Below are positions 8,718-33,591 of a stretch of 58,418 nt of DNA, piece by piece. The position numbers and the translations under genes were made by a program. The DNA lies in the sequence record PP627278.1. One strand, 5' to 3'. The notes under the pieces were generated by a model. The model did not search any database, had not been told where the DNA came from, and worked only from the letters and a program-made list of their open reading frames with translations. Origin of the DNA: Escherichia phage KS_A3. Within the stretch, counting starts at the first letter, position 1. Every line of letters begins with the position of its first letter.

Positions 8718-9641
8718 ATGGCTACAGGTTCACGTTATTCATGTTACTACGTCAAAGAAGATGTAAGCAACACTACGCCAGCGAGTGCGAAGTTTACTCC
8801 GTTCCGTGTGACCAGCTCCGGTCTGGACATTAATATTGCAACGCTGGAATCTGAAGAACTGCGCGATGACGCTGAAACTGCGGACTTCCGCCTCGGTGCT
8901 CGCAGTGTTGAAGGTACAGTAACGGGCGAAATGTCCTTCGGCACCTTCGATGATCTTATTGCTGCTGCACTTCGTGGGGAGTGGCAAGACAACGTCCTTA
9001 AAGGCGGTATTATCCGTCAGTCATTTACTTTCGTAGACTATAACGCAGATCTACCGTCAGGTAAATATACAATTTATCGCGGTTGCGAAGTTAATAGCAT
9101 GACTTTCTCATTGTCTGCGGAAAACATGACCACAGTGGAATTCGGTATTGTTGGTCGCTCAATGGAAATTGCGGAATCGCTCCCATCTGGTGCAACTATC
9201 AAAGAGCGTACGACTACTTCACCGATGGATGGTTTCTCCGGTCGCTTGCTGGAAAACGACGAAGAAATCAGCGTTATTACGGAAATCGGTCTTACCGTTG
9301 AAAACGATATTGCACCGCGCTTTGTTGTTGGTTCTAAGTTCTCCATTGAACCGTCCGCTGGCCGCCGTGCGGTAACTGGTACAGCTAACGTGTACTTCCT
9401 GGATAACAAGCTGCGTATGAAGTATCTGGATGAAGTGGAAACTTCAATCAAGTTTGATCTGATTGACCCAAGCAATCCGGAACAAAAATACACTGTGGAA
9501 ATCCCTCGCGTGAAATTCACTGAAGCTCCGCGTCCTATTGACGGTGAAGGGGATATCATGCTTAATATGGGCTACCGCGGATTGCTGGACCCAACAACCG
9601 CAAGTTCCATCAAAATTACCCGCGTTGTAGCGGGAGCCTAA
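8718..9641 (+). CDS. major tail protein
   Basis: 307 aa ORF with SD, immediately upstream of tail chaperone/frameshift/tape measure genes. Confidence 0.55.
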   Translation: MATGSRYSCYYVKEDVSNTTPASAKFTPFRVTSSGLDINIATLESEELRDDAETADFRLGARSVEGTVTGEMSFGTFDDLIAAALRGEWQDNVLKGGIIRQSFTFVDYNADLPSGKYTIYRGCEVNSMTFSLSAENMTTVEFGIVGRSMEIAESLPSGATIKERTTTSPMDGFSGRLLENDEEISVITEIGLTVENDIAPRFVVGSKFSIEPSAGRRAVTGTANVYFLDNKLRMKYLDEVETSIKFDLIDPSNPEQKYTVEIPRVKFTEAPRPIDGEGDIMLNMGYRGLLDPTTASSIKITRVVAGA

Positions 9642-9650
9642 GGATAAGAA

Positions 9651-10058
9651 ATGACCGACACCAAAAAAGCCAAAGTTGCAGTAGCTAAAAGCTTCCGTGA
9701 TTTTAAAACTGTGAGCCGGGCTAACGACCCGGCAAACACTAAGCCAATGAATGTGGTTATTCCTGGTGTAGGCGACACTGGCGAAAAACTCTACATTCGT
9801 AGCCGCTACTGCACAGAGTACCGTGATGCTGAACTGAAAGCACAGCGTCAACTGTTGGCGCTTATGCAGGGTAAAGACGGTGAAGTAACGGATGCTATGA
9901 AGGAAGATATCCTTACCCGTTCACTGTGTAACCTTGTAGCAGGTTGGACTTTTGACGAGCCTCCGACTGTTGACAACGTATTTGAGTTCTTAACGGAGAA
10001 CCCAACTGTTCGAGAAGATCTTAACGTATTTGCCGCCAAAGATAGTAATTTTTTCTAA
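9651..10058 (+). CDS. tail assembly chaperone (G-like)
   Basis: 135 aa ORF immediately upstream of tape measure gene; ends with slippery site. Confidence 0.6.
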   Translation: MTDTKKAKVAVAKSFRDFKTVSRANDPANTKPMNVVIPGVGDTGEKLYIRSRYCTEYRDAELKAQRQLLALMQGKDGEVTDAMKEDILTRSLCNLVAGWTFDEPPTVDNVFEFLTENPTVREDLNVFAAKDSNFF

Positions 10059-10456
10059 AAGCGCGCAGACAGTTAATTGATAAGAAGATCCTCCAATGGG
10101 AACTAAATAGCAAAGTCCCCGGCGGGGGATCTTCTTTATTATCGCAACTGCAAAAGGTTGAGGAACAGTCTGGTAAGACGCCACCTAAGCTTAAAGAATA
10201 TCGGGAAAAGGAAATACCGGTTTGCTTTGAATACCTGTCTACTTTATTTGATGACATTTACACTGGAGGGGATTTTAGTTATACAGAATTGCACAGCTAT
10301 CAGGTAACAATGGGCTTACATCTTCAACCGTACGAATGCGAAATACTGCGACAGCTATGGCTTGAAAAGCGCGTGTCTGAAGCTGAACAAAATGCTAAAC
10401 TCATGGAAAGTCAAATGCAGAATCTGAATAAAGGTAGAAGGAAAAGGAGAAGGTAA
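9651..10456 (+). CDS. tail assembly chaperone frameshift product (GT-like), made by -1 programmed ribosomal frameshift
   Basis: -1 frame is open from 10049 to the TAA at 10454-10456 with no start codon of its own and is not in the ORF track; T_TTT_TTC heptamer at 10049-10055 in X_XXY_YYZ register. Confidence 0.5.
10049..10055 (+). other. slippery heptamer TTTTTTC for -1 frameshift
   Basis: zero-frame codons TTT TTC just before stop of the chaperone ORF; hairpin AAGAAGATCC..GGATCTTCTT at 10082-10135 downstream. Confidence 0.5.
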
Positions 10457-13400
10457 TGGCCGAAACTGCTTCGCTAGTAATCAGGGTTGACGCGAAAGGG
10501 ATTAGCACAGCGGACTCCATGCTGCGTAACCTTGCGCGTACAGGTGACACAGCGGAGCGTTCCGCTCAACGTGTCACATCCAGCTATAAGACATTGTCTA
10601 ACGCATCTAACGAACTTGCAACTGTCACAAGTCGTTTAGATGCTGCAATTGTAGGAATGATTAGCGTCGACACCATTAACCGTGTTATTTCGCTATCGGA
10701 CTCCTGGACTATCCTCACCAACAAGCTTGAACTGGCTCGTACGGGTAATGAAACCGTTGCGGATGCGCAACAACGTGTATTTGATATTGCCCAGCGTTCG
10801 CGTACAAGCTTGGAAGCGACTGCAACTCTGTACTCCCGTCTCCAGCGTGCGATGAAGAATACTGGTATGACGGGTATGGAGCTTGGACGTATCACGGAAA
10901 CAATCAACAAAGCAATGATCGTTTCTGGTGCAACGTCCCATGAAGCAAGTGCTGCCCTTATTCAGTTTTCGCAAGCAATGGCGTCCGGTGTTCTGCGTGG
11001 GGACGAATTCCGATCCGTTGCAGAACAAGCGCCCCGCTTAACTCAAATCATGTCCGATGCGTTAGGCGTTACCATTGGACAATTGCGTGAAATGGCTCAC
11101 AGCGGCAAGTTGAGCGCCGATGTGGTTATCAAATCGTTGTCTGGTGCTGCGGATACAATTGATAAAGAATTTAGCCGCACTATGCCAACGTTTAACCAGC
11201 AATGGACGGTTGCAACAAACAACTTGACTAAGTTCATGGGCGAATCCCAAAAGACTCAAGGTGCGGTTGCTGCATTGGGACAGACGTTTGTTGCGTTATC
11301 CAAAAACTTAGGAACGGTTGTAACAGTTGGTTCAGCTTTAGCCACAGTAATTACCGCCCGTATCATTACGGCAATGCTTGCTAAGACTAAAGCGTCTATA
11401 GCTGCTGCAAAAGCATCGCAGATGGAAGCTGCACAAACGGCGGCAACTACTGCGGTGATGCAAAGCTCTATTGGCGTTACCGCGCAGAAAGCGGCTGCGG
11501 ATCGTGCTGCTTCTCTTGCAGCGTTACAGGTTGCTCGCGGGTCATTAGCGGTTGCTAAAGGTACGGCAGCGGAAGCAGGCGCACGTCTTGCGCTTATTAA
11601 CGCTACCCGTGCGCATTCTGCGGCAATTATGGCGGACGTACAAGCGCGGCAAGCGCTCAATGCTGCGCTTAATGCAACTGTACCAGCCGCAAGCCGAGCA
11701 GCTACAGCAATGAGCGTGCTGCGCGGTGCTATGGGGTTAATTGGCGGTCCTGTTGGTGTAGCAATGCTGGCAGCGGGTGCAATTTACTCCTATAAAGCGT
11801 CGTTGGAAGCTGGTCGTGCGGAAAACAATCAATTTGCGGATAGTGTTGATTCTGTACGCGAGAAACTGATGCAGATGACAGAAGCTCAGTTGGCAGCTAA
11901 CGCAGTTAAAGCTCGCGCAATCCTCCCTGAACTTGAAGAGCAAATGAAGCGGGAGCAAACTGCTCTTAAATCTGCAACGGAAACGCAGAAGTTCTATGAA
12001 GCACAATTAAAACGTCGTGCTGCGTCCGGTCGTGATACGGCCAGTGCTGAAAAGAATTTACAAATTGCAACGGATAACGTCAAGCTTGCTGCGGAACGTG
12101 CTGAAGAAGCTCAACGTCGTTACAACAATGTGCTTGAAATGACAAGTCCCGCTATAGAGAAAATAATCCCTCTAGCGCGTCAGCTTGCTGCGGATATGAA
12201 GGCTGTCCTTAACATTAAATCCGGTCCGTTGATTGACGAAAAAGTATTGGACCGCTTTAAAGGTCAACTAGGGGACGTTAACCGTGAGATTGATGTTAAC
12301 ACGGTTAAGGGTGCTGGCAATGCTCGCCAAGCTGCAATCCTTAGTGGACTGTATCAGACGCTGGGCAAGGATGCGGATACATACGGAAGTCTTATTCGCA
12401 AAGTAGCTATGGGTCAGGACGTTAGCTCAGAGGCAACAAGCGAGTCCGCTAAAGAGCTTGTTAAATATGCTCAAGATTTAGCCCAAGCTCTTGGCAAAAA
12501 CTACGATCTTGAAGAAGCAGAGAGAAACCGGACTAAAGCTATAAAAGACGGTATTAAAGCAGAACAACAGAACGCCAAAGTTATTGACAATTTACGCAAC
12601 AAGCTTAACGAAGTAACCACAGGAGTTAAGGAAAACGCCAAAGCAAAAGCTCAAGCTGTGGCTTTAAACAAGCTCAATACGTCTGCAACTGCCGCGGAAA
12701 AAGCAGAAGTTATGAGTCTTGCTGCTGCGATTTATGAAGCGGAAGAAGCTCAAAAGAAACTGGACGAGCGTAAAAAGAATCGTAAAGTTGCTCAAGGTCT
12801 GTTAGATGAAGGTATGACGGACTATGAAAAAATCGCGTATGAGCAAAATACTAAGATTGCAGAGCTTAATGCAAAACAGCGAGCCGATGATTTAGCTTAC
12901 TATCAGCTTTACGAAGACGCTAAGACGCAAGTCCTGAAGAAAGCGAGTATGGAAAGAGAAAATCTGGATAAAGTTCTTATGAACCGAATGATATCCTTTT
13001 CTCAGGAATCCTTAGGCATTATAATGGATGGCCTGTCACAGGCTGTAAGCCAGCAGAACTTCTTTTATAAAGCTATGTTTGCAGCACAGAAAGCAATGCA
13101 AATCCCATCAATCCTTGCCAACACGGAAACGGCAGCATCTGCGGCGCTTGCATGGGGTACACAGCAAGGAGGTGCTACGATGGGTGCAACAATGGCAGCT
13201 ATAGTGAAAACTATGGGTTATGCGTCCGCTGCCACTGTGGGTGGCTTAGCGATTGCTGGTATGGCTCACGACGGTATTGATAACGTTCCGCGTGAAGGTA
13301 CATGGTTGCTGGATAAGGGTGAACGTGTACTTAATGCTCCGTCTAATGACAAGTTAAACCGCTTCCTGGATAGCCAAGCTTCACAACAAGGTGGCGTGAA

Positions 13401-13572
13401 TATGTCCGGTGGTGTTAGCATTGTTCAGTATATCACGGTGCAAGGAAATGGCGATGCAGCACTCACACAAGCCATGCAAAAAGCGGCCCGTGATGGCGCT
13501 GAGCAGGGATATAATAAAGTTCTTAATGACTTTGCATCCCGAGGAACAATTCGTAGAACTGCAATGGGGTAA
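10456..13572 (+). CDS. tail tape measure protein
   Basis: 1038 aa, Ala/Gln-rich helical protein, longest tail-module ORF directly after the frameshifted chaperone. Confidence 0.85.
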   Translation: MAETASLVIRVDAKGISTADSMLRNLARTGDTAERSAQRVTSSYKTLSNASNELATVTSRLDAAIVGMISVDTINRVISLSDSWTILTNKLELARTGNETVADAQQRVFDIAQRSRTSLEATATLYSRLQRAMKNTGMTGMELGRITETINKAMIVSGATSHEASAALIQFSQAMASGVLRGDEFRSVAEQAPRLTQIMSDALGVTIGQLREMAHSGKLSADVVIKSLSGAADTIDKEFSRTMPTFNQQWTVATNNLTKFMGESQKTQGAVAALGQTFVALSKNLGTVVTVGSALATVITARIITAMLAKTKASIAAAKASQMEAAQTAATTAVMQSSIGVTAQKAAADRAASLAALQVARGSLAVAKGTAAEAGARLALINATRAHSAAIMADVQARQALNAALNATVPAASRAATAMSVLRGAMGLIGGPVGVAMLAAGAIYSYKASLEAGRAENNQFADSVDSVREKLMQMTEAQLAANAVKARAILPELEEQMKREQTALKSATETQKFYEAQLKRRAASGRDTASAEKNLQIATDNVKLAAERAEEAQRRYNNVLEMTSPAIEKIIPLARQLAADMKAVLNIKSGPLIDEKVLDRFKGQLGDVNREIDVNTVKGAGNARQAAILSGLYQTLGKDADTYGSLIRKVAMGQDVSSEATSESAKELVKYAQDLAQALGKNYDLEEAERNRTKAIKDGIKAEQQNAKVIDNLRNKLNEVTTGVKENAKAKAQAVALNKLNTSATAAEKAEVMSLAAAIYEAEEAQKKLDERKKNRKVAQGLLDEGMTDYEKIAYEQNTKIAELNAKQRADDLAYYQLYEDAKTQVLKKASMERENLDKVLMNRMISFSQESLGIIMDGLSQAVSQQNFFYKAMFAAQKAMQIPSILANTETAASAALAWGTQQGGATMGATMAAIVKTMGYASAATVGGLAIAGMAHDGIDNVPREGTWLLDKGERVLNAPSNDKLNRFLDSQASQQGGVNMSGGVSIVQYITVQGNGDAALTQAMQKAARDGAEQGYNKVLNDFASRGTIRRTAMG

Positions 13573-32784: not shown

Positions 32785-33591
32785 TTACAAGCCGTTCAGG
32801 GCTTCCGGTACTGGTACAGGTACGCGACCAGTCACACCATTAAATTTCTTCCAGCGTGCATACTGGGTTTTAACGGTATCTTCGTTCAGACCATGTCGAC
32901 CAGCCAGGTTCAGAACATAAGAGATCGGAGCAGGCTGACCCAGCGTAGCGCTAATCTGGTCCATCAGAGCCCAGGCACGACCGCAGGAAGTTTCAGGTTG
33001 TGGACGACGAACACCATTCTGTTCAGGCATACGGTTCGCTTCTTTCGCTTTTTCACGTTCAGCTTTTTCGCGGGCTTTTTCAGCAGCCTTTTCAGCCTGT
33101 TTAGCAGCGCGGATCTTGTCTTTGAAGCCTTTGATAAACGAATCCAGTTCGTCAACCATGCTCTGAGCAGCACTTACTGCACCGGACAGATCTTCATCTT
33201 TGGATTTTTTAACAACTGCTTTCAGCTCTTTCAGTTTATTCTTAAAAAGCTTCAGCTGTTCAGAACCCTGAAATTCAGCTACCGTAATCTCTTCAATAGT
33301 GCCTTTATCGGCAACATCGGATAAAACAGACCTCACGGTTTCAACTCCGCGGGAAAGAGCGGTAAATTTATTTTCCGCTACAGCACGAATTTCAGCTTGT
33401 TTCTTTTCAGCGGCAGCTTTTTTCTCTGCTTCTTTTTTCTCTTTTGCTACGCGTGCAGCTTCAGCGGCAGCGGCTTTTTTAGCTTCTTTCTTTGCAGGCT
33501 TAGCAGATTTTTCAGCGGCAGCAGCGGCTGCGGCAGCAGCGGCTGCGGCAGCAGCGGCTTTCTTATCTTCAATATTACTCATTTTCTTCAC
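32785..33591 (-). CDS. lysine/alanine-rich histone H1-like protein with poly-Ala tract
   Basis: 268 aa; N-terminal run of 15 Ala then KAAK/EKKA repeats, globular C-terminal domain. Confidence 0.55.
   Translation of the reverse strand: MKKMSNIEDKKAAAAAAAAAAAAAAAEKSAKPAKKEAKKAAAAEAARVAKEKKEAEKKAAAEKKQAEIRAVAENKFTALSRGVETVRSVLSDVADKGTIEEITVAEFQGSEQLKLFKNKLKELKAVVKKSKDEDLSGAVSAAQSMVDELDSFIKGFKDKIRAAKQAEKAAEKAREKAEREKAKEANRMPEQNGVRRPQPETSCGRAWALMDQISATLGQPAPISYVLNLAGRHGLNEDTVKTQYARWKKFNGVTGRVPVPVPEALNGL
33515..33559. repeat. perfect 3x tandem 15-mer (GCGGCAGCAGCGGCT) encoding poly-Ala
   Basis: three identical 15-nt units read directly in the sequence. Confidence 0.9.

What the first reader, a model, noticed from the sequence alone, without database searches (positions are those of the whole stretch)
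9651..10456. Programmed -1 frameshift in the tail assembly chaperone gene
The chaperone ORF ends at 10058, but the -1 frame stays open for about 135 more codons to a stop overlapping the tape measure start codon and has no start codon of its own. The junction has a canonical T_TTT_TTC heptamer at 10049-10055 and a 10-bp-stem hairpin about 27 nt downstream. This matches the conserved G/GT mechanism of long-tailed phages; the extension is absent from the ORF track.
Basis: partly seen in the sequence, partly recalled or inferred. Interest (0 to 1): 0.45.

Follow-up and report, generated by a model that had tools for sequence, protein, structure and literature searches.

The report
Tail chaperone G/GT -1 frameshift, confirmed
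This phage makes a long and a short version of its tail-assembly chaperone by letting a small share of ribosomes slip back one base at TTTTTTC, a textbook phage trick already annotated in its close relative Seurat; the only fresh detail is a conserved RNA fold downstream that sits unusually far from the slip site.

Summary
The window is Escherichia phage KS_S4 (Seuratvirus). Gene G (9651-10058) ends at TAA. The -1 frame is closed by TAG TAA at 10043-10048, then open from 10049 to TAA 10454-10456, which overlaps the tape-measure ATG. The two frames are therefore both open only across T_TTT_TTC (10049-10055).

The extension is real coding sequence. It matches Pfam Phage_TAC_18, and the conceptual 268-aa fusion matches PHROG 569 in one stretch. 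In the 80 codons before any start codon, 24 of 30 variable sites fall on -1-frame third positions. The in-frame heptamer is kept in every relative examined down to 33% protein identity, while the 0-frame stop position moves.

GenBank already annotates this slippage in Seurat (95% identical) and SA80RD, so the frameshift is already known. KS_S4's own record misses it.

The hairpin is real (10078-10141) and robust. Its synonymous sites are frozen, and a hairpin with different sequence sits at the same place in other lineages. It starts 22-26 nt after the heptamer, too far for a canonical stimulator. Distant relatives carry the positionally homologous stem-loop 6 nt downstream. A possible closing helix 7 nt downstream is only moderately supported.

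The parts
8718..9641 (+). Tail tube (major tail) gene, the upstream neighbour that defines the G/GT position
   Evidence: Pfam PF18906 Phage_tube_2, E 3.8e-41
9651..10058 (+). Gene G: 135-aa (15.2 kDa) tail assembly / tape measure chaperone, the product of standard decoding, ending at TAA 10056-10058
   Evidence: ORF list. PHROG 569 at 2.8e-26 and PHROG 313 'Tail assembly chaperone' at 3.2e-11. 72 of 91 variable sites among 18 relatives are at codon position 3.
10043..10048 (+). TAG TAA stops in the -1 frame directly before the heptamer; they confine any productive shift to the heptamer
   Evidence: Translations
10049..10055 (+). Slippery heptamer T_TTT_TTC (0-frame codons TTT TTC; after the slip TTT TTT, next codon CTA)
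   Evidence: It is conserved in frame in yong3, Vid5, 9g, HdK1, PSTCR4, Kpn2-P2, 22 IMG/VR loci and 7 intermediate relatives, and is TTTTTTA in the EC151 clade. U_UUU_UUC is shift-prone in E. coli (PMC4066793).
10055..10456 (+). T extension in the -1 frame: 133 codons after the two Phe codons, with stop TAA 10454-10456. The GT fusion is join(9651..10055,10055..10456), 268 aa, 30.8 kDa, pI 8.5.
   Evidence: Pfam PF23812 Phage_TAC_18 at 1.5e-9, above the curated cut-off, matching residues 37-106, upstream of any start codon. The fusion matches PHROG 569 in one stretch, residues 1-268 to profile 11-256, E 1.3e-76. 24 of 30 variable sites in 10056-10288 are at -1-frame position 3.
10078..10141 (+). 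Long imperfect stem-loop. The spacer to the heptamer is 22-26 nt.
   Evidence: Pair probability is 0.9-1.0 whatever the folding window. z = -3.6 against synonymous recoding. The stem codons ATC CTC CAA GAA and CCC GGC GGG TCT TCT are nucleotide-invariant in 21 sequences. Variable-site density falls to 0-2 per 30 nt in 10041-10160.
10063..10074 (+). Putative 5' strand of a closing helix that would start 7 nt after the heptamer (hypothesis)
   Evidence: It pairs with 10164-10174 in the 125-nt fold (P 0.7-0.96) but not in the 160-300-nt folds. 88.6% of cells are paired and 3 of 10 pairs are compensatory in alignment A3. It is absent in the 9g and EC151 clades.
10143..10162 (+). Small second hairpin inside the putative three-way junction (hypothesis)
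   Evidence: helix 3: 91.7% paired, one-sided changes only
10164..10174 (+). Putative 3' strand of the closing helix (AAC.GUCUGGU); it overlaps the nucleotide-invariant CTGGTAAGACG
10444..10449 (+). Shine-Dalgarno AAGGAG for the tape-measure gene, embedded in the basic C-terminus of T
   Evidence: Read from the sequence; low variability in 10371-10460
10456..13572 (+). Tape measure protein gene, the downstream neighbour
   Evidence: Pfam PF20155 TMP_3 at 2.5e-60; PHROG 339 at 4e-181

Best explanation
This is a programmed -1 ribosomal frameshift in the tail assembly chaperone gene of a Seuratvirus.

Most ribosomes decode G normally. They read ...AAU UUU UUC and terminate at UAA (10056), giving the 15-kDa G protein. 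A minority slip back one base while tRNA-Phe occupies UUU (P site) and UUC (A site). These tRNAs re-pair with UUU UUU, the next codon read is CUA, and translation runs for 133 more codons to UAA at 10454-10456. The result is a 268-aa, 30.8-kDa GT fusion (...DSNFF-LKARRQLID...).

By analogy with lambda gpG/gpGT, G and the G part of GT coat the tape measure protein. The T part recruits the tube protein. The G:GT ratio is set by the shift efficiency.

Shown here: the anatomy; coding constraint in the -1 frame from the heptamer onward; conservation of the in-frame heptamer; homology of both halves to chaperone families.

Inferred: that the shift is ribosomal, its low efficiency, and the assembly role.

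The downstream stem-loop (10078-10141) is under RNA-level selection. It is positionally homologous to a canonically spaced stimulatory stem-loop in distant relatives, so it most likely tunes the shift (about 50% confidence). It may act through a closing helix that starts 7 nt after the heptamer.
For: (1) The frames are jointly open only over T_TTT_TTC. The chance of any XXXYYYZ at that one position is about 1/286.

(2) Gene order is tube, G, T, TMP.

(3) The T extension matches PF23812 Phage_TAC_18 above its cut-off, across residues that precede any start codon. The fusion is collinear with PHROG 569 (one stretch, 1-268, E 1.3e-76), and PHROG 313 'Tail assembly chaperone' aligns across the junction (residues 41-143).

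(4) Among 18 Seuratvirus sequences, 24 of 30 variable sites in 10056-10288 are at -1-frame position 3 (binomial P 2e-7).

(5) T-domain alignment of 7 lineages is gapless from the FF of the heptamer. The in-frame heptamer is invariant while the 0-frame stop lies 0, 1, 6 or 13 codons downstream.

(6) All 56 IMG/VR loci with a T homolog show G followed by T in the -1 frame.

(7) GenBank records for Seurat and SA80RD annotate the joined CDS with ribosomal slippage at this heptamer.

(8) U_UUU_UUC gives more than 0.1% shifting without a stimulator, belongs to the efficient H_HH.U_UU.Y class in E. coli, and is used by IS elements (PMC4066793).

(9) Hairpin evidence.
Against: There is no experimental evidence for the fusion protein in this phage or, as far as I found, in any Seuratvirus. 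The genome papers do not mention the frameshift. Ribosomal slippage cannot be told from transcriptional slippage by sequence alone. No SD-like element is visible upstream of the heptamer. The robust hairpin is too far away (22-26 nt) for the standard unwinding-site model. The closing helix that would give canonical spacing depends on the folding window and is missing in the 9g and EC151 clades. G alone scores below the Pfam cut-off for Phage_TAC_4 (14.3 vs 21.1 bits), and its AlphaFold model was unusable (pLDDT 53).
Confidence: 0.9

Rival explanations
1. Transcriptional slippage: RNA polymerase adds one extra U at the T6 run, so a fraction of mRNAs encode GT in a single frame. The protein outcome would be the same.
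For: The slip site is a homopolymer: T6 here and T7 in the 9g, Kpn2-P2 and EC151 clades. UUUUUUU is avoided in E. coli genes, possibly because of slippage (PMC4066793).
Against: From my own knowledge, productive slippage by E. coli RNAP usually needs runs of about 8-9 or more. Distant homologs of the same cassette use A_AAT_TTT, C_AAT_TTT or G_GTT_TTT, with T runs of only 4-5, together with a canonically spaced stem-loop. That is a ribosomal signature. The heptamer is always in the X_XXY_YYZ register of the G frame.
Confidence: 0.05
2. There is no fusion. T (or part of it) is made separately, as in the deposited records: from TTG 10289 or ATG 10310, or by reinitiation at a non-canonical codon after G terminates.
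For: KS_S4, the BASEL phages and others annotate a 48-aa ORF at 10310-10456. Several 9g-like records start T at a TTG 54 nt after the heptamer.
Against: Conserved coding sequence in the -1 frame, including the invariant GKTP motif and the Pfam match at residues 37-106, lies upstream of 10289 and runs back to the heptamer. The TTG used in 9g is CTA here. No start codon or SD is conserved. In PSTCR4 and EC151 the G stop lies 13 and 6 codons past the heptamer, yet T homology still begins at the heptamer. The PHROG 569 profile is collinear with the fusion.
Confidence: 0.03
3. The frameshift is real, but the conserved hairpin does not stimulate it. It could instead protect the rarely translated T region from RNase or Rho, act as a partial terminator that lowers tape-measure transcription, or slow ribosomes for co-translational folding.
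For: The spacer of 22-28 nt lies outside the known stimulator ranges (5-9 nt, rarely 12-15; PMC5009743). The inner GC hairpin plus T-rich tail matches a terminator-like pattern. T is translated by few ribosomes, so its RNA is exposed.
Against: The positionally homologous stem-loop in distant relatives sits 6 nt after the heptamer, with 5 of 16 pairs compensatory. That is the classic stimulator geometry. The U tract after the stem is absent in the 9g, Kpn2-P2 and EC151 lineages. Synonymous-site freezing starts right at the heptamer and also covers the spacer GCG CGC.
Confidence: 0.3

Closest known systems
Phage lambda gpG/gpGT and the conserved G/GT frameshift of long-tailed dsDNA phages (Levin 1993; Xu, Hendrix & Duda 2004, 2013, 2014, as summarised in PMC5009743)
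   Same: Two overlapping ORFs lie between the major tail gene and the tape-measure gene. A -1 shift occurs at an X_XXY_YYZ heptamer near the end of G. The short product is expected to be abundant and the fusion rare. Both halves match chaperone families.
   Different: The heptamer is U_UUU_UUC, decoded by tRNA-Phe, rather than lambda's G_GGA_AAG, decoded by tRNA-Lys. Here the 0-frame stop directly abuts the heptamer and two -1-frame stops directly precede it. A large conserved RNA structure lies downstream. No sequence similarity to lambda G or T was tested or seen.
Escherichia phage Seurat CPT_Seurat13/14 (KM236243) and SA80RD_14/15 'tape measure chaperone', annotated with ribosomal slippage
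   Same: These are orthologous genes, about 95-96% identical in DNA, with the same heptamer, stop and extension length (268 aa).
   Different: Nothing of substance differs. The KS_S4 record lacks the joined CDS and instead carries two small ORFs, 10158-10307 and 10310-10456.
IS911 / IS3 -1 frameshift signals (heptamer plus three-way junction or pseudoknot; PMC5009743, PMC4066793)
   Same: They are bacterial -1 PRF signals. U_UUU_UUC is among the heptamers used by IS elements. The putative architecture here (closing helix plus two hairpins starting 7 nt downstream) would resemble the IS911 three-way junction.
   Different: The three-way junction here is only a prediction with partial covariation support. 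No upstream SD stimulator is visible. The best-supported element is a hairpin 22-26 nt away.
Distant T-domain relatives in IMG/VR (loci L039-L071)
   Same: They have the same G / -1 T / TMP layout and a homologous T domain. Their stem-loop begins at the conserved 'LID' codons and ends at the homologous position.
   Different: Their heptamer is A_AAT_TTT (or C_AAT_TTT, G_GTT_TTT). The 0-frame stop is 9 nt downstream. The stem-loop starts 6 nt after the heptamer, against 22 nt in KS_S4, which has three extra codons between the heptamer and LID.

Membership tests
G/GT tail assembly chaperone frameshift cassette (lambda type) | Two ORFs located between the major tail/tube gene and the tape-measure gene | tested here: met
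   Tube PF18906 at 8718-9641, G at 9651-10058, T to 10456, TMP PF20155 at 10456-13572
G/GT tail assembly chaperone frameshift cassette (lambda type) | Second ORF in the -1 frame, overlapping the end of G and lacking its own initiation signal | tested here: met
   The -1 frame is open from 10049. The first ATG/GTG/TTG is 80 codons in. No conserved start occurs in relatives.
G/GT tail assembly chaperone frameshift cassette (lambda type) | Slippery X_XXY_YYZ heptamer in the G frame inside the overlap, conserved among relatives | tested here: met
   T_TTT_TTC at 10049-10055 fills the whole overlap. It is conserved down to 33% T identity.
G/GT tail assembly chaperone frameshift cassette (lambda type) | Extension is protein-coding in the shifted frame (purifying selection) | tested here: met
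   24 of 30 variable sites are at position 3 in 10056-10288. The other frames contain 4-14 stops.
G/GT tail assembly chaperone frameshift cassette (lambda type) | Sequence or fold membership of G and T in chaperone families | tested here: met
   T: PF23812 at 38.3 bits against a cut-off of 27. G: PHROG 313 'Tail assembly chaperone' at 3e-11, and PHROG 569 for both halves. However, G against PF08748 scores 14.3 bits, below the 21.1 cut-off. The fold test failed (pLDDT 53) and no PDB relative was found.
G/GT tail assembly chaperone frameshift cassette (lambda type) | Fusion protein actually made at a low fixed ratio and required for tail assembly; absent from virions | not testable with these tools
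   This needs a Western blot or mass spectrometry plus genetics. No such data appear in the papers read.
Canonical bacterial -1 PRF signal with a 3' structural stimulator (dnaX, IS3, IS911) | Stable RNA structure whose 5' edge lies 5-9 nt (rarely 12-15) after the heptamer | tested here: inconclusive
   The robust hairpin starts 22-26 nt away, so it does not meet the feature. A closing helix 7 nt away has partial covariation but depends on the folding window and is clade-limited.
Canonical bacterial -1 PRF signal with a 3' structural stimulator (dnaX, IS3, IS911) | Structure maintained by selection (covariation or synonymous constraint) | tested here: met
   Synonymous sites are frozen in the stem arms (12/19 vs 4/29, P 6e-4). 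MFE is below synonymous recodings in 11 of 11 lineages. Compensatory pairs occur in A3, A5 and A7.
Transcriptional slippage site | Long homopolymeric A/T run (about 8-9 or more for E. coli RNAP; from memory) | tested here: not met
   The run is T6 here. It is T4-T5 in distant homologs that keep the same cassette.
Intrinsic transcription terminator | GC-rich stem directly followed by a U tract, conserved in relatives | tested here: not met
   A pattern match occurs at 10115-10130 plus CTTCTTTATT. However, those U residues are paired in the dominant long hairpin, and the 9g, Kpn2-P2 and EC151 hairpins have no U tract.

The most novel reading that the evidence does not exclude
The Seuratvirus/Nonagvirus group may keep an ancestral frameshift-stimulating stem-loop that has drifted from the canonical 6-nt spacing to 22-28 nt downstream of a new U_UUU_UUC slip site. 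It would still control G:GT stoichiometry in one of two ways. One is a newly evolved closing helix that turns it into an IS911-like three-way junction starting 7 nt from the heptamer. The other is a long-range mode of action not covered by the standard unwinding-site model. G/GT frameshifts are generally treated as needing little more than the heptamer, so a conserved, selectable RNA rheostat in a well-sampled E. coli phage group would be a tractable model.
Probability: 0.4. Interest if true: 0.45.

Novelty: already known. Interest (0 to 1): 0.25.

Why it matters
The practical value is in annotation. KS_S4 and many Seuratvirus and Nonagvirus records split or omit GT and call G a 'tail length tape measure protein', so the 268-aa joined CDS should be added. 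The biology of the frameshift itself is textbook. The downstream RNA element is the only part that could teach something new. Its synonymous sites are frozen, it recurs with different sequence in sister lineages, and its homolog in distant relatives has canonical spacing. This gives a natural series for testing how spacer length and added helices tune bacterial -1 frameshifting.

Tried and rejected
- A protein database search with the fused GT returned nothing. G alone returned 8 relatives. I treated the first result as a tool quirk.
- AlphaFold2 of G with a 9-sequence alignment gave pLDDT 53, so I did not run a fold search. The chaperone fold of G remains untested.
- A PDB sequence search and NCBIfam gave only chance-level hits.
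- Rfam gave only sub-threshold hairpin-shaped hits on the opposite strand.
- RNAalifold on all T_TTT_TTC lineages together found no consensus. The hairpin register differs by 1-5 nt between sub-clades. I therefore used synonymous-recoding controls and per-clade pair counts instead.
- A +1 frame continuation is rejected: that frame is open for only 28 codons.
- An SD-like stimulator upstream of the heptamer was looked for by eye and not seen.
- Intrinsic terminator and transcriptional slippage readings were considered and given low weight (see rivals).
- The genome papers on Seurat, Vid5 and EC151 do not discuss the frameshift.

Full report
IDENTITY OF THE WINDOW. The region 9400-10700 is 100% identical to Escherichia phage KS_S4 (PP627282.1; Queuovirinae, Seuratvirus). 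It is 95-99% identical to about 30 other Seuratvirus genomes, including Seurat, CAjan, slur01, Greed and the BASEL phages.

CHECK OF THE OBSERVATION. G runs from 9651 to 10058 (135 aa) and ends ...AAT TTT TTC TAA. In the -1 frame, TAG TAA lie at 10043-10048. The frame is then open from 10049 to TAA at 10454-10456, whose last A is the A of the tape-measure ATG. The two frames are therefore simultaneously open only over 10049-10055, which is exactly T_TTT_TTC in the X_XXY_YYZ register of G. The +1 frame closes after 28 codons. The first ATG/GTG/TTG in the -1 frame is TTG 10289, 80 codons in. Any XXXYYYZ heptamer occurs once per 286 positions in this window. TTTTTTC occurs 13 times on both strands, against 20 expected. 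It is the core of a longer stem-loop at 10078-10141: MFE -34 kcal/mol for 105 nt, z -4.4, 0 of 200 shuffles as stable.

IS THE EXTENSION TRANSLATED, AND FROM WHERE? Five lines of evidence bear on this.
- The upstream gene is a tail tube protein (PF18906, 3.8e-41) and the downstream gene a tape measure protein (PF20155, 2.5e-60). The extension matches PF23812 Phage_TAC_18 (38.3 bits against a cut-off of 27) over its residues 37-106, well upstream of any start codon.
- G and the extension hit the two halves of one PHROG profile (569). The conceptual fusion hits that profile in a single stretch, residues 1-268 to profile positions 11-256, E 1.3e-76. PHROG 313 'Tail assembly chaperone' aligns across the junction.
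- Among 18 distinct Seuratvirus sequences, 24 of the 30 variable sites in 10056-10288 fall on the third position of -1-frame codons (P 2e-7). In G the figure is 72 of 91.
- tblastn with the extension finds homologs in 87 phage records, down to about 25-30% identity. In yong3, Vid5, EC151, 9g, HdK1, PSTCR4 and Kpn2-P2, the T-frame protein aligns without gaps from the two Phe codons of the heptamer. The in-frame heptamer T_TTT_TTC (T_TTT_TTA in EC151) is kept while the 0-frame stop lies 0, 1, 6 or 13 codons after it. The shift point is therefore the heptamer, not the stop.
- All 56 IMG/VR loci with a T homolog have a G ORF of 125-185 codons followed by T in the -1 frame. Seven relatives of intermediate divergence (G 71-81% identical) keep the heptamer plus TAA.

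PRIOR KNOWLEDGE. Its heptamer is at 10233-10239. SA80RD does the same. KS_S4's own record has G mislabelled 'tail length tape measure protein', plus two small ORFs at 10158-10307 and 10310-10456. The G/GT frameshift of long-tailed phages is a classic (PMC5009743). U_UUU_UUC is among the heptamers giving more than 0.1% shifting without a stimulator. It belongs to the efficient H_HH.U_UU.Y class in E. coli and is used by IS elements (PMC4066793). The finding is therefore correct but already known. The genome papers themselves do not discuss it.

MECHANISM. The only E. coli tRNA-Phe (anticodon GAA; my own knowledge) reads both UUU and UUC. With UUU in the P site and UUC in the A site, both tRNAs can re-pair one base back on UUU UUU. 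The next codon is then CUA and the product reads ...DSNFF-LKARRQLID.... G is 15.2 kDa with pI 5.2. GT is 30.8 kDa with pI 8.5. A single P-site slip on UUC, with the slowly decoded UAA in the A site, would give the same protein. That cannot be the general mechanism, because the stop is not adjacent in Vid5, EC151 or PSTCR4. Transcriptional slippage on T6 cannot be excluded from sequence. It is made unlikely by distant homologs of the same cassette, which use A_AAT_TTT, C_AAT_TTT or G_GTT_TTT with only 4-5 T.

THE DOWNSTREAM RNA. The hairpin at 10078-10141 has pair probabilities of 0.9-1.0 whatever window is folded. It is more stable than sequences recoded with synonymous codons (z -3.6, 0 of 300). 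The same holds, to varying degree, in all 11 lineages tested (z -1.1 to -4.2), although their hairpin sequences differ. In a scan of the tail genes, only one other 99-nt window (9711-9809, inside G) is as extreme.

Among the 18 Seuratvirus sequences, variable sites fall from 4-10 per 30 nt to 0-2 per 30 nt across 10041-10160. That is 4 observed against about 25 expected, P 3e-7. With the intermediate relatives and yong3 added (21 sequences), 12 of 19 amino-acid-invariant degenerate codons in codons 3-31 are nucleotide-invariant, against 4 of 29 further downstream (P 6e-4). The frozen codons are the stem arms (ATC CTC CAA GAA; CCC GGC GGG TCT TCT), the spacer codons GCG CGC, and GGT AAG ACG at 10172-10180. 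The one stem change seen, GGA to GGG in L090, keeps pairing as G-U.

In the Nonagvirus-like clade the equivalent hairpin keeps 94% of pairs. It has 3 compensatory pairs, against 0-1 in the slid controls. RNAalifold over all lineages finds nothing because the register differs by 1-5 nt between clades.

SPACING. The hairpin starts 22 nt (outer A-U pairs) to 26 nt (core) after the heptamer, and 28-35 nt after it in other clades. Known stimulators start 5-9 nt away, rarely 12-15 (PMC5009743). Two observations bear on this.

First, the more distant T-homolog clade has an extended stem-loop of about 80 nt. Its outer stem starts 6 nt after the heptamer, with 5 of 16 consensus pairs compensatory. Native folds are at or below synonymous recodings in all 27 sequences. 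Mapping onto the protein alignment is my own reading. That stem-loop begins at the conserved R-L-I-D codons and ends at K-V-S-R. The KS_S4 hairpin begins at the I-D of Q-L-I-D and ends at S-S-L-L, the homologous places. KS_S4 has three more codons between the heptamer and LID. The hairpin therefore looks like a displaced homolog of a canonical stimulator.

Second, in a 125-nt fold of KS_S4, a closing helix (10063-10074 with 10164-10174) encloses the hairpin and a small second hairpin (10143-10162). Together they form a three-way junction that starts 7 nt after the heptamer. On a 15-sequence alignment (Seuratvirus-like, yong3, Vid5, PSTCR4):
- 87.5% of cells pair, against 33-51% in the slid controls.
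- 10 pairs have double changes, against 4-7 in the slid controls, and 0 of 500 shuffles reach the score.
- The closing helix has 3 compensatory pairs of 10.

However, its probability collapses in 160-300-nt folds. The 9g and EC151 clades lack it. The structure was derived from one of the aligned sequences, which favours it in the controls. I rate it a hypothesis.

VERDICT. The -1 programmed frameshift is as well supported as sequence analysis allows (confidence 0.9). It is already annotated in close relatives, so it is ordinary. The hairpin is real and selected, but its role as a stimulator is unproven (about 0.5). The displaced-stimulator and three-way-junction reading is the only part with some novelty.

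Noticed in passing
window 10158-10307 and 10310-10456; also 9651-10058: The deposited KS_S4 record (and KS_A8, KS_W4, Dru_SM1) annotates a 49-aa TTG ORF in the G frame and a 48-aa fragment of T as 'hypothetical proteins'. It labels G 'tail length tape measure protein', a name inherited from PHROG 569, which is really the chaperone G/GT family. The first ORF is probably spurious.
   Followed up: partly
window 9711-9809 (inside gene G): This is a second strongly structured stretch: MFE -35 kcal/mol, z -3.96 against synonymous recoding, and -38 kcal/mol with z -2.75 against shuffles for 9700-9820. It is a multi-branch fold including GCCGGGCUAACGACCCGGC. Its function is unknown and its conservation was not examined.
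   Followed up: partly
IMG/VR loci L039-L071 (e.g. L041:644-745, L049:644-745): Distant homologs of the T domain use A_AAT_TTT, C_AAT_TTT or G_GTT_TTT heptamers, with the 0-frame stop 9 nt downstream. They carry an ~80-nt stem-loop that starts 6 nt after the heptamer and shows clear compensatory changes. This is a textbook -1 PRF cassette and appears unannotated in these metagenomic contigs. In the C_AAT_TTT and G_GTT_TTT versions the P-site codon cannot re-pair perfectly.
   Followed up: yes
window 10172-10180 (CTGGTAAGACG, codons for GKT of the invariant GKTP motif): This stretch is nucleotide-invariant, including its synonymous sites, in the 15 aligned sequences of the Seuratvirus-like group, yong3, Vid5 and PSTCR4. 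Those T proteins are only 33-57% identical. The conserved stretch extends beyond the putative closing helix, so the helix does not fully explain it.
   Followed up: partly
window 10371-10456: Variable-site density drops again (1-3 per 30 nt) at the end of T. There the purine-rich codons for the basic tail KGRRKRRR double as the Shine-Dalgarno (AAGGAG, 10444-10449) of the tape-measure gene, and the stop and start overlap as TAATG.
   Followed up: no
phage records MH230177 (Aeromonas phage SD04) and KY982929 (Cronobacter phage CSP1): These records are about 95% identical in this region to E. coli Seuratviruses, although they are named for other host genera. Either the host range is broad or the host labels are questionable.
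   Followed up: no
window 33418-33424 and 33433-33439 (+ strand): Two further TTTTTTC heptamers lie 15 nt apart. Their frame and context were not examined.
   Followed up: no
window 9619-9634 (- strand): A terminator-like GC hairpin plus T run sits on the minus strand at the 3' end of the tube gene (CCCGCTACAACGCGGG TAATTTTGAT). On the plus strand the same hairpin lies just before the G start. HdK1 annotates a putative terminator between its tube gene and G.
   Followed up: no
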